Below, one piece after another: positions 40,001 through 46,000 of a DNA stretch of 64,000 nucleotides. Every line of letters starts with the position of its first letter. The stretch's first letter is position 1. Made by a program: the position numbers. This DNA comes from Podarcis pityusensis (taxonomy: Eukaryota). The stretch is taken from assembly GCA_964106645.2 (NCBI GenBank), contig OZ067042.1; one strand, written 5' to 3'.

Positions 40001-43000
40001 GCCTGATCCATGATTTTGTAGTAGCCCAAACCGTTAAAGATCATCCAGTTTTGGTGGCATGTTGATAATAATGAATGCCATTTGGTGACTGGGTGATTTT
40101 CAGCTTATCGTTAGTACAACTGATGTTTCAGAGCAATTTGCTTATTTGAATCCTAACCATAGCATGCCTATGCTGTACATTCTTCTTGTAAATTAGGGTT
40201 TATTTCAGCTTTACTCAGGAGAAGCATATTACGTTTCCTAGATCTGGGTCTTAAGGGAGGTTAGTAGGGGCATTTGCTTGAGCCCCTCTGCTAAATTTTA
40301 ACACAGGGATGGGGAACCTGTAGCTTTCCACTTGTTACTGGATTACAACTATCATAATCCTTGACAATTGCACTCGCTGGTTGGGACTGACGGGAGCTGC
40401 AGTCCAACAACATCTGGAGGGCCACACGTTCATACCTGCTGTAGCCAAAGGGAAGTAAGCTGGGTATGCTAGGAAACATCTTAACAGGAATAGGCCAGAT
40501 TGTGTCATGTGATGCTGCTCAACCTGTGTAAAAAGTTATGGATTAGACTTGCTTAAAGGTAAAGGTAAAGGGACTCCTGACCATTAGGTCCAGTTGTGAC
40601 CGACTCTGGGGTTGCGGCACTCATCCCACTTCATTGGCTGAGGGAGCCGGCGTACAGCTTCCGGGTCATGTGGCCAGCATGAGTAAGCCGCTTCTGGCGA
40701 ACCAGAGCAGCGCACGGAAATGCCGTTTACCTTCCCGCCGAAGCGGTCCCTATTTATCTACTTGCACTTTGACATGCTTTCGAACTGCTAGGTGGGCAGG
40801 AGCTGGGACCGAGCAACGGGAGCTCACCTTGTCGCAGAGATTCAAATTACCGACCTTCCGATCGGCAAGTCCTAGGCTCTGTGGTTTAACCCACAACGCC
40901 ACCCTCGCCCCTTACCAATTGGTAAATACCTGTTTTGCGTGAATGACCACTTGTGTGTCTGGCATGGCTTTTCCTTTTCCGGGTCCTGTTGGATTGGATC
41001 CAGTAACAGTCTGCCTTGCTGCACTACATGCTTGATAGAAAGGCTGAGCCCATACAGAATATTAACGTACCATGTCATTCTTCTTCTACACATCTGCACA
41101 TGTAGTCAAAGTAGACTCATCACTTGGCAGGTTGATACAGATGACCAGACAGCTTAAAAGGTAAAGGTAAAGGGACCCCTGACCATTAGGTCCAGTCGTG
41201 ACAGACTCTGGGGTTGTGGCGCTCAGCTCGCTTTATTGGCCGAGGGAGCTGGCGTACAGCTTCCAGGTCATGTGGCCAGCATGACTAAGCCGCTTCTGGT
41301 GAACCAGAGCAGCACACGGAAACACTGTTTACCTTCCTGCCGGAGCGGTCCCTATTTATCTACTTGCACTTTGACGTGCTTTCAAATTGCTAGGTTGGCA
41401 GGAGCAGGGACTGAGCAACGGGAGGTCACCCCGTCACGGGGATTCAAACCGCCGACCTTCTGATCAGCAAGCCCTAGGCTCTGTGGTTTAACCCACAGCG
41501 CCACCCTGGTCCACCAGACAGCTTACTCCAATACAATTTGAACAGCTATATGGGCAGGAGTGGTGGTCCAGAAATTCACTTACCAGTTTACCATTGGCAA
41601 ATACATTTTTCTGTTCTGGTGAGATTCTGTCCATCTTCTTTCAAGTCACTAAGAGAGAGGAGGAATCTTGGATTGATTTATTGGTTTGGCGTGACCCCCG
41701 CTAATTGATTTACGATCCACAATTAGCTCTTTATGCCCGGCGCGCTTCCTCCGAGCTGCGCCACTCAGCTCCGTCTTCAGTAGCTCTCCAGTCACGCCTC
41801 AGCAGAGTTGAACACAGCGGTGAAACTGTCACGTAGCTTCCACTTAGCTTCCGACAAACACACAGAGACCAGGTTTGTCTAATATCAGTTCTTTATTCCG
41901 ACTTTCCCCAGGAAATCTCCTGGGCTCACAGCAGCCATGACAAACTGCCACCTTCTCTCTCAGAGAACAGAGAGGAACAGAGAAAACGAAACTCCTCCCA
42001 GCTTCTAAAGCTGACGTCAGAATGCTGAGGCATCATGGGAACTTCTTAACCTGTTAAGTTCCAAACCCAACACCCCCTCTTGCCGAACCATTCTGACAAG
42101 ACCCTTTTTGAGTTCAACACCTTTCCCTTTGCCTTGTGCCCCTTCCCGGCATCTTTCCCAGGCACCTGTTGAACCCCTTCAACACTCCCAGAATCACACT
42201 GTGCGACACTTTTCCACGCACTTGTGACCTGATACCCTACTGACCCATTTGGGCCAGCAGTTGTGTCTTCTCCGTCAGATCCTTCCCCCTCTGACTTGAC
42301 ACCCTGTTTGTGAGCTTTCTCCATTACGCTAACCGGAGATGAAGCCTCACACCTGGACACTCCTTTCACAACCTTTGGAGATGCCCAGACCTGCCCTGAA
42401 CCCTGATCTTGGACCTGGTCCCCATCACCGGGTTCTGAACCCTGATCTTGGACCTGGTCCCCATCACCGGGATCAGCCTCTGCCTCCCTTTCCTCCTCAG
42501 AATCAGACAGACATTCTGAGAGAAAAATAAGAACTATCCCTGAGTCTTGAACACTCACCCTGTTCACAGAACTCAGCCTGCTTACTGACCAGCAGCTTGG
42601 TTTGATCACCCTCTGGGTATGCAAACTTCCACCCATTGGTTGCAGGATCATATCCACAGAAGATCATGTCCTCAACCTTTGGACCACCTGCCTCAAAGAG
42701 CTCAAAGGGCTCTTTGGCTACCCTCCCAAACCCGGGAAAACCATGTACCTGTGCACCCTTGCATGCCCTGCACCCTAGGGACCTCCCACATTTCCGGAGT
42801 TTGTACCCTTTTGTGCACCTGTGCAGCTTTTGCACATGACTGGGAACCTTAGCACACTGCGCCTGTGCTTTTCCAGCATTCCCACCACCCTCCAGAGGTG
42901 ACTCCAGAACAAAGAGATTGTTCTGCCCCCTTTTCACGTTGGCCACTTGTTTCCCCCCAACGTAGACCTCTAGCTCCTCCTGTAAAGGAGAAAAAAACAT

Positions 43001-46000
43001 GTTAGCCACAGCAGAAACCGACTTTCTCATTCCGTCTGCTAACATCACAGTTGTTCCTGTTGAAACAGCCCTGCAGTTCCGCATTTCGCCAGCAGGCTCG
43101 CTTAGCAGGTGCTGACCAACAGCAGTATTCAAAACCCAGCGCGTCACCGTGTCCTGGCTGGAGTTGTTCTTCACAGTTGCCATAGAAGCAGTGATAAGAA
43201 AACAACCCTCCCCAGTGTCTGAGCCACGTCTTTCCCTTGCGTTCCCACGCTGGCCTCCTCTCCGAGACTGGTTCCCATGAGAACTCAGCTGGTTGACCTT
43301 GGGACCTTCCTGCCCAGCTGTCTCCGCTTTCCATGGGCAGCAACGACGAACTCCAGTGGAAAAACACTGCCCGGGGCTCCTCCCAGCCGGCCTCCTTCTC
43401 CTTCTTCCGGAAAAACACTCCTTGCCAGCTCCGCCCCCTCTGGCCTGGCTCCCACTGCGGCTTTCTGGGAACCTGCTTTGTTCACATTCCACTCCAGCAC
43501 GCACAGTGGAAAACTTTTCAAAGTGGCCTTTGGAATCCTTCGCCCCCCCGACCTGCTCACCAGCACTCCTTGAGGCTAAAGCATCAGGAACAGGGGCTCC
43601 AGCCATCTCCAGGCTTTTCTCAATACTTCTCCAGGGCTCTGGCCTCCTGCTGAAGCTTCACAGCACATCCCAGCACAGCCCTTGCTGACTTTACGCCCTT
43701 GCCCAACTTCTTAGAGTGAGCTGTTGAAACGCAATGTCCTCCAAGACCTGGCTGCCTGCCATTGTCTTCCGTTCTCCCAAGGGGCCCCAAGCTGTACTCA
43801 CAGATTACAAGCTCTTCCGGCACCCATCCGTGGAGAAACGATTTTCCAGCTGCTCTGAGCTCCGCAGCTCTCCTTTGCCTCTTAACACCAGGCAAAAACT
43901 CCTGCCAGCGACTTCAAACGCATTCCGGCACTTCAAAGCGTTCCTGTGACAGTTTTTACGATCGGTGATTAAGGGTCCATAACCTCTTGGATTGATTTAT
44001 TGGTTTGGCGTGACCCCCGCTAATTGATTTACGATCCACAATTAGCTCTTTATGCCCGGCGCGCTTCCTCCGAGCTGCGCCACTCAGCTCCGTCTTCAGT
44101 AGCTCTCCAGTCACGCCTCAGCAGAGTTGAACACAGCGGTGAAACTGTCACGTAGCTTCCACTTAGCTTCCGACAAACACACAGAGACCAGGTTTGTCTA
44201 ATATCAGTTCTTTATTCCGACTTTCCCCAGGAAATCTCCTGGGCTCACAGCAGCCATGACAAACTGCCACCTTCTCTCTCAGAGAACAGAGAGGAACAGA
44301 GAAAACGAAACTCCTCCCAGCTTCTAAAGCTGACGTCAGAATGCTGAGGCATCATGGGAACTTCTTAACCTGTTAAGTTCCAAACCCAACACTGAGCAAC
44401 GGGAGGTCACCCCGTCACGGGGATTCAAACCGCCGACCTTCTGATCAGCAAGCCCTAGGCTCTGTGGTTTAACCCACAGCGCCACCCTGGTCCACCAGAC
44501 AGCTTACTCCAATACAATTTGAACAGCTATATGGGCAGGAGTGGTGGTCCAGAAATTCACTTACCAGTTTACCATTGGCAAATACATTTTTCTGTTCTGG
44601 TGAGATTCTGTCCATCTTCTTTCAAGTCACTAAGAGAGAGGAGGAATCTTCCAGACCCTTGTACTCATCCTGAGAGTGAGAGTCCTGGCTTTTCTCCAGG
44701 CTTGGGAGAAGGGCAAGGAATGTCATCAACTCAGTCTGAGTCTCTCTGTAACTCAGGGAAAATAGGGACAACAATCCTTGCTCCAGCTCAGATCTGGGAA
44801 GGAGGATGGGGCTTGTCTCTGCAGACACGTTGGGTCTTGAGGATCCTCAGAACACCTCCAACTCAGTTCTTTATTTCCCTCTCCTCTAAGTAGGGTAAGG
44901 ATGATGGGGAGTACAAATTTTGGGTGAACCTATGTGTAAGGGTTCTCTTACTCCTCCTGCTGAATGTCCAGATGCGAGTAAACATTTTCTGGCTCTTGTT
45001 GTCACTTTGAACATGGATAAAGAGAGAATGCAATGCATGCCACCAGATCTGTCATTCATGAACAAGAGGTTAAGATTTTATTTTATTAGGAGGATGTTAC
45101 TGAGAGATTATTGTGCAGATAAAAATAGAAAGCTTTGCAGTCTCGTGATTAATAAAGGTCTTGTATCAATACCACTAGTCAGCTGGGCCCACTTGTGCTG
45201 ATGCCCTTTCCAGGCTCTCTGCACTTAACAGCTTAGTATGAAGGCAAAAACTTAAATTTCCCACAATGCTCCACAGTGATATTCCACCTGTGGCATTATG
45301 GGAAAATAAAATAGTGACTCCCAGCCAGTGGTGATCAAAGCACTTTGGCTGCTGCTACACCTGTCTGTCGCTACCCATACCAGATAAGCACGTGAGACCC
45401 ACAAAAGTAGGAGGGGAGCTGTTGGAAGGCACTGCTGAGGACCCTCTTAAACCTGGAGCAAGACCTCTTATTTCCCTTTTAAAAATTCTTTCTCTAGCAC
45501 CTGCAAGCTCTGGTACAGAATAACAGAATCAGTTTATGCTAGATAAACCAGTAATTGAGTATCCTGCGGGAGAAGGCTGACTATATCTACCAAAACCTGA
45601 ATCACTCCAGGCCTGACTATGAGGCAGGCTGAGTTATGGAAACCACTTTTGGCTCAAATGTGCAGTGATGTCTGAGCCATCAAATTCCAAAGATAAGAAG
45701 AAATGCTAGAGTGATACATATATTAATCTATTTAGGGGTGGGGTTTTTTTGTTTTTGTTTTGTTTTGGTTCCCCCTCTCTTTGCCTGCAATTCCACTCTG
45801 TTAAAAGTAGTGTATATAAAAAATGGTGCCTAGACATTCTGTTGTGGTGACCATAGCCTATGTTTAAGGTGCCATTTGGCAAGTAGCTTATATATCTGAG
45901 TTTCTAAGACTGGGAGTGTGTGCTATTCTCCCATATAGAAAGCTAGATGTTGTTGTTGTTGTTTAGTCATTTAGTCGTGTCCGACTCTTCGTGACCTCAT

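What the first reader, a model, noticed from the sequence alone, without database searches (positions are those of the whole stretch)
41411..44650. Young Copia insertion flanked by a 255-bp target duplication, with a TG...GA terminus and microhomology at that end
Seen: the two 407-bp LTRs are identical. The U3 end is a clean TG joined at 44391/44392. The U5 end is CCAAGA rather than CCAACA, and its last 4 nt (tctt, 41666-41669) are also the next 4 nt of the host sequence (44647-44650). Instead of a ~5-bp TSD, 41411-41665 is repeated exactly at 44392-44646. Known: Copia integrases normally make ~5-bp TSDs; retroviral DNAs with one defective end can integrate one-ended and leave large host duplications; TG...GA ends also occur in functional Copia elements (rice Tos17). 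Inference: a half-site integration in which integrase joined the U3 end and host microhomology-mediated repair joined the GA end. If this is typical of the family, it would be a retroelement that routinely generates local duplications.
Basis: partly seen in the sequence, partly recalled or inferred. Interest (0 to 1): 0.72.

Follow-up and report, generated by a model that had tools for sequence, protein, structure and literature searches.

The report
Copia insertion with 255-bp flanking duplication
A young, defective Copia-type retrotransposon sits between two identical 255-bp copies of host DNA instead of the usual 5-bp repeat, a rare but already described outcome of faulty insertion.

Summary
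A 2,726-bp element (41666-44391, minus strand) has two identical 407-nt LTRs. It lies between exact direct copies of host DNA, 41411-41665 and 44392-44646, with 1 and 4 ambiguous bases at the edges.

It is a non-autonomous Ty1/Copia derivative. The TG...GA reading of its ends is supported by a 5-of-6 terminal inverted repeat. The 12 nt abutting the GA end match an initiator tRNA-Met segment at 11 of 12.

The pre-insertion state is visible in the window. An intact SINE with its own 13-bp duplication spans the left breakpoint.

Best reading: a complete cDNA was joined at two points about 255 bp apart. The U5 end was joined by host end joining, as its 4-nt overlap suggests. The U3 end was probably joined by integrase.

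Unequal crossing-over, integrase-free capture and an assembly fault are not excluded. Whether the family does this habitually could not be tested.

Long duplications are known from one-ended retroviral integration experiments and from human endogenous retrovirus K. This is therefore a new member of a known kind.

The parts
41144..41156 (.). Left copy of the 13-bp target-site duplication of SINE1. The right copy is 41513-41525.
   Evidence: Exact 13 of 13, and it extends no further on either side. This shows that the SINE spanning the left breakpoint is one native insertion.
41157..41512 (-). SINE1, a tRNA-derived SINE. The left edge of the duplicated segment (41410|41411) falls inside it.
   Evidence: It aligns in register with other SINE copies of the window across 41410|41411.
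41411..41665 (.). Left copy of the duplicated host segment (255 unambiguous bases): 102 nt of SINE1 head, then unique DNA.
   Evidence: Identical to 44392-44646.
41666..41669 (.). Four bases (TCTT on the + strand) that are both the last four of the U5 end and the next four of the host (44647-44650).
   Evidence: The paralogue shows the uninterrupted host reading across this point.
41666..42072 (-). 3' LTR, 407 nt, ending CCAAGA.
   Evidence: 407 of 407 identical to the 5' LTR. Terminal inverted repeat 5 of 6.
42073..42081 (-). Polypurine tract: 9 purines abutting the 3' LTR.
42073..43984 (-). Internal region, 1,912 bp: a broken Copia gag-pol remnant, given here as one part.
   Evidence: The longest ORF (367 aa, used as window:42503-43606:-) finds Copia polyproteins. 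No residue of the relatives' gag or reverse-transcriptase domains is matched. Integrase core is not detected. The ORF's frame holds 13 stops in 637 codons.
42396..42471 (.). 39-bp tandem duplication (1.9 copies) inside the internal region.
43973..43984 (-). Primer-binding site, 12 nt, abutting the 5' LTR with no spacer.
   Evidence: Matches 11 of 12 positions of nt 28-39 of the initiator tRNA-Met string printed in PMC8216282, so the element's RNA would pair with that segment. Compared by eye.
43985..44391 (-). 5' LTR, 407 nt, starting TG at 44391.
44392..44646 (.). Right copy of the duplicated host segment.
56469..57504 (-). Inverted paralogue of the duplicated segment plus 778 bp of the DNA to its right. 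It carries the segment once (57247-57504) and so acts as an empty-site witness.
   Evidence: 0 mismatches of 258 in the segment and 11 of 778 beyond it.
57505..57715 (-). Body of a different SINE (SINE2) into which the paralogous copy is set. Its head part is at 56336-56464.

Best explanation
A complete linear cDNA of a non-autonomous Ty1/Copia element was inserted recently. Its two ends were joined to the chromosome at points 255-259 bp apart instead of 5 bp apart, with the same strand polarity as a normal staggered cut. Filling in or copying the stretch between the two points left that stretch on both sides of the element.

The U5 end is the full-length end of the cDNA: it runs right up to the base next to the primer-binding site. 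It overlaps the host by 4 nt, which is the mark of host end joining rather than integrase. The U3 end is flush and was probably joined by integrase supplied in trans, which would make this a one-ended integration.

Shown: the anatomy, the pre-insertion arrangement and the overlap.
Inferred: which enzyme made each junction, and how the host stretch was copied.

Later, the right-hand copy appears to have gene-converted the inverted paralogue about 12 kb away.
For: - Both junctions fall at the exact ends of the LTRs, within 0-1 nt at U3 and 0-4 nt at U5. So a whole cDNA was inserted, not an arbitrary piece of DNA.
- The 12 nt after the 5' LTR match an initiator tRNA-Met segment at 11 of 12 and abut the GA end (by eye). 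The chance is about 1e-4 over all offsets. A tRNA-iMet half primes Drosophila copia (PMC10275265 passage). The cDNA's U5 end therefore is ...AAGA, and all of it can be read at the junction.
- A 4-nt overlap with the host has P = 1/256 at one given junction.
- The pre-insertion arrangement has the segment once. SINE1 is continuous, with its own 13-bp duplication, and the paralogue reads straight through the right breakpoint.
- LTRs match at 407 of 407 and flanks at 255 of 255, which fits one recent event.
- Precedent from experiments: when integrase can join only one retroviral end, host enzymes join the other, and host duplications of hundreds to thousands of bp are the commonest result (PMC5041404 passages).
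- Precedent from nature: long target-site duplications of 61-450 bp occur at HERV-K sites, one with a verified pre-integration allele (PMC5488345 passages).
Against: - This is a single case. A 4-nt overlap arises by chance once in 256.
- The flush U3 junction does not prove integrase action.
- TG...GA ends work normally in Tos17, so the GA end need not be defective.
- No reads, no alleles and no other family member could be examined. The sequence alone does not exclude recombination between two insertions or an assembly fault.
- The paralogue is not an allele. It witnesses only the right breakpoint. The left one rests on SINE continuity.
Confidence: 0.5

Rival explanations
1. Integrase took no part. 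A free cDNA was captured at a staggered or processed chromosome break, or at a broken fork, and host end joining made both junctions.
For: The U5 junction looks like end joining. The U3 junction has 1 ambiguous base and carries no positive mark of integrase. Integrase-independent insertion of LTR elements is documented for Tf1, including for the wild-type element (PMC11042837 abstract and section 8). The element itself encodes no integrase core.
Against: The Tf1-type signature is absent. The host after the 3' LTR does not match the first bases of the primer-binding site (0 of the first base), and the host before the 5' LTR matches only 1 base of the polypurine tract. Both cDNA ends are complete, whereas host-joined ends are often truncated (PMC5041404 passage).
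Confidence: 0.2
2. Two separate insertions of the same element occurred 255 bp apart on different chromatids or haplotypes, each with a normal 5-bp duplication. They were followed by unequal crossing-over within the element.
For: The product would be exactly the observed arrangement. A similar 'pseudo-TSD' route is discussed for HERV-K (PMC5488345 passage).
Against: It needs two independent hits of an identical element within 255 bp. No other copy lies in 64 kb. The 4-nt overlap at U5 would be a coincidence (1/256). The LTRs carry no difference that would mark two parents.
Confidence: 0.08
3. Integrase joined both ends, in two uncoupled half-reactions about 255 bp apart. This would be a true giant target-site duplication.
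For: The polarity is that of a normal target-site duplication. HERV-K authors read their cases this way.
Against: It would require 255 bp of duplex to be unwound, and it leaves the 4-nt overlap to chance.
Confidence: 0.07
4. Assembly fault. A heterozygous insertion or the nearby paralogue misled the assembler, and one flank copy does not exist.
For: All repeats are 100% identical. A third identical copy lies 12.6 kb away. No read data could be checked.
Against: A false join would have to fall exactly on an LTR terminus. The window has no gap. The flanks beyond the repeat are distinct from the paralogue: 11 mismatches of 778 on one side, and on the other a divergence like that between unrelated SINE copies.
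Confidence: 0.08

Closest known systems
Aberrant one-ended retroviral integration (ASLV vectors with one mutated end; HIV-1 with partly blocked or weakened integrase)
   Same: One end is normal and the other is joined by host enzymes. The host DNA at the aberrant end is most often duplicated by hundreds to thousands of bp (PMC5041404 passages).
   Different: Those are experimental infections of cultured cells with retroviruses. This is a germline copy of a Copia retrotransposon. Here both ends are complete, and which enzyme acted is inferred only.
Long target-site duplications at HERV-K (HML-2) sites
   Same: These are natural, inherited LTR-element insertions flanked by 61-450-bp direct host repeats. 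One 250-bp case has a verified empty allele (PMC5488345 passages; Mamedov 2004 seen only as a citation there).
   Different: They are betaretrovirus-like elements of primates, not Copia. The passages I read do not mention microhomology (0 occurrences of the word).
Integrase-independent insertion of Tf1
   Same: An LTR-element cDNA is inserted by host recombination, using short homology at the cDNA ends (PMC11042837 section 8).
   Different: There the homology is to the primer-binding site and the polypurine tract, carried on single-stranded tails. Here the overlap is with the last 4 nt of U5 itself, and the primer-side bases do not match the host.
Tos17 and other non-TG..CA Copia elements
   Same: Copia elements with a TG...GA terminal motif (10.1101/137141 passages).
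   Different: These are plant elements, and that text reports non-canonical elements with 5-bp duplications. This is a vertebrate element with a 255-bp duplication.
Drosophila copia priming
   Same: The primer-binding site matches the anticodon-side region of initiator tRNA-Met, as for a tRNA-half primer (PMC10275265 passage).
   Different: Only complementarity was seen here (11 of 12, by eye). Priming itself was not shown.

Membership tests
Ty1/Copia LTR retrotransposon | Two direct long terminal repeats | tested here: met
   407 of 407 identical.
Ty1/Copia LTR retrotransposon | Canonical TG...CA termini within a short terminal inverted repeat | tested here: not met
   The termini are TG...GA, with an inverted repeat of 5 of 6. 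A TG...CA parse 3 nt further in gives only 2 of 6, and the primer-binding site contradicts it. TG...GA is a known Copia variant.
Ty1/Copia LTR retrotransposon | Primer-binding site complementary to a tRNA, next to the 5' LTR | tested here: met
   43973-43984 matches 11 of 12 positions of nt 28-39 of the printed initiator tRNA-Met. The comparison was by eye, not by a tool.
Ty1/Copia LTR retrotransposon | Polypurine tract next to the 3' LTR | tested here: met
   A 9-purine run at 42073-42081 on the minus strand.
Ty1/Copia LTR retrotransposon | Copia-type gag-pol protein | tested here: met
   Of the 11 hits, the three multi-domain relatives (P0002, P0003, P0007) carry Retrotran_gag_2, Pol_BBD and gag_pre-integrs. 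P0002 and P0003 also carry rve and SH3_retrovirus, and P0002 carries RVT_2. BLASTP E-values are 1e-25 and 1e-17. On the element's own ORF, Pfam gives only a sub-threshold SH3_retrovirus hit (18 bits against a cut-off of 27).
Ty1/Copia LTR retrotransposon | Domain order with integrase before reverse transcriptase | tested here: inconclusive
   No reverse-transcriptase residues are left (0 of 106), so the order cannot be read.
Ty1/Copia LTR retrotransposon | Target-site duplication of about 5 bp | tested here: not met
   255-259 bp. No short repeat under either parse.
One-ended (aberrant) integration with long host duplication | Direct host duplication flanking the element, single copy before insertion | tested here: met
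   The witnesses are a paralogue and SINE continuity, not an empty allele.
One-ended (aberrant) integration with long host duplication | One junction made by integrase, the other by host enzymes | tested here: inconclusive
   U5 has a 4-nt overlap. U3 is flush with 1 ambiguous base. The enzyme cannot be read from one junction.
Tf1-type integrase-independent insertion | Host flanks match the first bases of the primer-binding site and the last bases of the polypurine tract | tested here: not met
   Downstream flank against the primer-binding site: the first base already differs. Upstream flank against the polypurine tract: only 1 base is shared.
   There is no other copy in the window. No eukaryotic DNA collection is on hand. 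A 186-aa protein 93% identical to the ORF's first 183 residues (P0001) shows only that relatives exist.

The most novel reading that the evidence does not exclude
The GA end makes this Copia family intrinsically prone to one-ended integration. Its insertions would then habitually create duplications of hundreds of base pairs, and the repeats so created would then seed ectopic gene conversion with nearby paralogues, as seen here.
Probability: 0.08. Interest if true: 0.7.

Novelty: new member of a known kind. Interest (0 to 1): 0.35.

Why it matters
It is a clean natural example, outside retroviruses and outside mammals, of an LTR element inserted with a duplication of hundreds of base pairs. 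Both cDNA ends are intact, the pre-insertion sequence can be read in the same window, and one junction shows microhomology. It suggests that the aberrant integration seen in retroviral cell-culture experiments also happens in a vertebrate germline with a Copia element. It also shows how such an insertion can create new repeats that then interact with paralogues. It does not open a new question by itself. Its value would rise if a census showed the family does this often.

Tried and rejected
- A 404-nt TG...CA parse of the LTR (41669-42072). I held it at first and then rejected it. It gives a terminal inverted repeat of only 2 of 6 against 5 of 6, and the tRNA match abuts the GA end.
- Tandem duplication of the 255-bp segment followed by insertion at the joint. 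Rejected: there is no 5-bp repeat at the junctions.
- Replicative template switching that copied a genomic element. Rejected: both junctions sit on exact LTR ends.
- Read-through or transduction of host DNA. Rejected: the LTR reverse-transcription scheme does not place host DNA outside both LTRs.
- Campbell-type entry of a circle carrying the segment. It only moves the question to where the circle came from.
- Copying of the flank from the paralogue during the insertion. It does not explain why both flank copies equal the paralogue, nor why identity starts at the left breakpoint.
- Short-read polishing as the cause of the paralogue's identity. Judged weak, because reads from the two flank copies match their own loci perfectly.

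Searches that gave nothing:
- The search for homologous proteins among longer proteins: 0 hits from 2,943 candidates.
- Pfam on three other ORFs of the element: 0 families.
- ARAGORN: 0 genes.
- Rfam at gathering scores: 0 matches.
- Paper search for the primer-site motif: 13 papers, none useful by its listing. I opened one, which concerned an Allium telomere repeat.
- Cluster look-up: no names.

Searches failed on term format and were re-sent.
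Full report
**What is there**

- The LTR match is 41666-42073 = 43985-44392.
- The flank match is 41410-41669 = 44391-44650.
- After removing edge bases that could belong to either partner, this leaves two 407-nt LTRs (407 of 407 identical) and a 255-bp host segment, 41411-41665 = 44392-44646 (255 of 255).
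- One base is ambiguous at the U3 junction and four at the U5 junction.
- The element is 41666-44391, 2,726 bp, with a 1,912-bp internal region.
- The window has no N. No second copy of the LTR or of the internal region is present.

**Orientation and class**

The element lies on the minus strand. The evidence:
- The only long reading frame is on the minus strand.
- A 9-purine tract abuts the LTR at 42073-42081.
- The 12 nt at 43973-43984 abut the other LTR.

On the element's own ORFs, Pfam gave only a sub-threshold SH3_retrovirus match (18 bits against a cut-off of 27; 1 of 4 ORFs had any hit). A word-based search among longer proteins found nothing (0 of 2,943 candidates).

The exhaustive HMMER search found 11 proteins at E <= 0.001. 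Pfam scanning of all 11 gave:
- Three multi-domain Copia polyproteins (P0002, P0003, P0007). All three carry Retrotran_gag_2, Pol_BBD and gag_pre-integrs. P0002 and P0003 also carry rve and SH3_retrovirus. P0002 carries RVT_2.
- Six proteins with one or two of those domains.
- One kinase, matched through low-complexity stretches.
- One protein with no family: P0001, which is 93% identical to the ORF's first 183 residues.

BLASTP aligns the ORF to the protease and pre-integrase region and to the SH3-like end of integrase (E = 1e-25 and 1e-17).

**State of the genes**
- The gag domain is not detectable: 0 of 168, 178 and 164 residues of the three relatives' gag domains are matched.
- The protease and pre-integrase region is present but shortened by in-frame deletions: 73 gap positions in 252 aligned columns. 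Its protease motif is not intact.
- The integrase core is not detected.
- Reverse transcriptase is absent: 0 of 106 residues.
- The frame that holds the ORF carries 13 stops in 637 codons.

The element is therefore non-autonomous and must have used proteins supplied in trans. I give no places of breaks.

**The ends**

I first read the LTR as a 404-nt TG...CA repeat, with three bases shared by chance. Two results overturn that reading.
- The 407-nt parse gives a terminal inverted repeat of 5 of 6, against 2 of 6 for the 404-nt parse. The chance of at least 5 of 6 is 0.005.
- PMC8216282 prints an initiator tRNA-Met sequence in one methods passage. By eye, 43973-43984 matches nt 28-39 of that string at 11 of 12 positions, so the element's RNA would pair with that tRNA segment. 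The match stops exactly at the LTR boundary of the 407-nt parse. The chance over all offsets is about 1e-4.
- A review passage states that a 5' half of tRNA-iMet primes Drosophila copia (PMC10275265; Kikuchi 1986 seen only as a citation there).

Tos17 is indeed described as TG...GA (10.1101/137141 passages).

**The pre-insertion state**

Two witnesses lie in the window itself.
1. The left breakpoint (41410|41411) lies inside a tRNA-derived SINE (41157-41512). That SINE aligns in register with other copies across the breakpoint. It has its own exact 13-bp target duplication, 41144-41156 = 41513-41525.
2. An inverted paralogue at 56469-57504 matches the duplicated segment and the 778 bp to its right as one uninterrupted stretch.

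So the segment was single, and the element sits between its two copies with the topology of a target-site duplication.

**How it most likely arose**

Both junctions sit on the exact ends of the LTRs. What was inserted was therefore a whole linear cDNA.
- This argues against an arbitrary DNA copy made by template switching.
- It also argues against a false assembly join, which would have to fall on an LTR terminus.

The U5 end is complete up to the primer-site boundary, and its last four bases equal the next four of the host. That has a chance of 1/256 at a given junction. This is what end joining through microhomology leaves. Integrase is not expected to leave it. The U3 junction is flush, with one ambiguous base, and says nothing either way.

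The literature supports the mechanism.
- When integrase can insert only one retroviral end, host enzymes insert the other, and the host DNA there is most commonly duplicated by hundreds or thousands of bp (PMC5041404 passages; the ASLV papers seen only as citations).
- Natural HERV-K insertions with direct flanking repeats of 61-450 bp are described, including one of 250 bp with a verified pre-integration allele (PMC5488345 passages).

I therefore commit to an aberrant, uncoupled insertion, with U5 joined by the host and U3 probably by integrase (0.5). My rival readings are:
- capture without integrase at both ends (0.2);
- unequal crossing-over between two nearby insertions (0.08);
- two uncoupled integrase half-reactions (0.07);
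- an assembly fault (0.08).

The Tf1-type signature (host flanks matching the primer-binding site and the polypurine tract; PMC11042837 section 8) is not met here.

**The paralogue**

The paralogue is not a plain segmental duplicate. To the left of the segment, its SINE body is no closer to SINE1 than unrelated SINE copies are:
- 92.3% over 207 compared columns, against 89.0-90.3% for the other five pairs;
- 94.1% over the nearest 135 columns, the same as one unrelated pair.

Beyond the SINE, the flanks are unrelated.

To the right, the homology stops at 45427. Four extra bases follow, and then comes the head part of a SINE that overlaps the body by about 34 nt (32 of 34 identical, by eye). 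The outer flanks share a 12-nt repeat at 10 of 12 (by eye).

I read this as an old ectopic copy of the segment plus 778 bp, set into another SINE by homology-primed repair.

The mismatch pattern is uneven.
- The segment shows 0 of 258 mismatches with the paralogue. The 778 bp beyond it show 11, the first of them 79 bp past the segment.
- A perfect tract of 341 bp has P of about 0.005-0.008 at that rate.
- Identity begins within a 13-bp interval (41407-41419) that contains the left breakpoint.
- At the same rate the LTRs and flank copies should differ at about 9 sites if they were as old as the paralogue. They differ at none (P about 9e-5).

The simplest account is that, after the insertion, the right-hand copy converted the paralogue, and the tract stopped where homology ends against the LTR. 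This is inference. Chance, or a shared fragile point in the SINE, remains possible.

**Host and context**

Two ORFs, at 11105-11686 and 8896-9378 (minus strand), match the two halves of the calcium homeostasis modulator family. I searched them exon by exon and left the joined step out.

I do not take the window for human.
- Copia elements are reported absent from mammals and birds (PMC4350176 passage).
- From memory only, the SINE resembles a squamate family. No call tested that.

**What stayed unchecked**
- The genome collection holds only bacteria and archaea, so I did not scan it.
- I therefore could not examine the termini and flanking repeats of other copies of the family, reads, or alleles.
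- I found no report of long duplications for Copia elements among the listings (15 of 83 listed; 12 of 112; 20 of 5,757). These were listings only, so this is not proof of absence.
- I did not open the supplements of PMC5041404 and PMC5488345.

**Verdict**

This is a new member of a known kind, of modest interest (0.35).

Noticed in passing
56336-57726 (minus strand): An ectopic copy of 41411-41668 plus 44650-45427 (1,036 bp plus 4 extra bases) sits inside another SINE. The SINE body and head overlap by about 34 nt (32 of 34), and the outer flanks share a 12-nt repeat (10 of 12). It looks like an old templated insertion primed by SINE-SINE homology.
   Followed up: partly
41407-41668 with 44650-44728, against 57508-57168: A perfect 341-bp identity tract with the paralogue, in a background of 11 mismatches per 778 bp. 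It starts within 4 bp of the element's left breakpoint. I read it as gene conversion from the right flank copy, stopped by the LTR.
   Followed up: partly
57716-57726 and 41537-41547: An exact 11-mer is shared between the outer flank of the paralogue's SINE and the duplicated segment. It is unexplained: chance, or a trace of older homology.
   Followed up: no
8896-9378 and 11105-11686 (minus strand): Two ORFs match the C-terminal and N-terminal parts of the calcium homeostasis modulator family (E = 3.5e-25 and 2.2e-61). They are probably two exons of one gene. They were searched apart and not joined.
   Followed up: partly
42396-42471: A 39-bp tandem duplication (1.9 copies, 100% matches) inside the element's internal region.
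   Followed up: no
47716-47942: A G+C-rich 120-bp tandem repeat (1.9 copies, 92% matches), inside a 221-aa ORF with no Pfam match.
   Followed up: no
14157-14510, 40551-40905, 41157-41512, 57403-57715, 56336-56464: At least five copies or pieces of one tRNA-derived SINE family, 84-94% alike. Two of them lie 602 bp apart in the same orientation just left of the element. ARAGORN and Rfam report none of them.
   Followed up: partly
14636-14861, 16989-17226, 23906-24124: Another repeat family of about 200 bp, 86-87% alike, in both orientations.
   Followed up: no
47526-48129 against 57751-58022: Weak inverted matches (74-80%) just outside the paralogue and about 2 kb right of the main locus. Possibly a further repeat family.
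   Followed up: no
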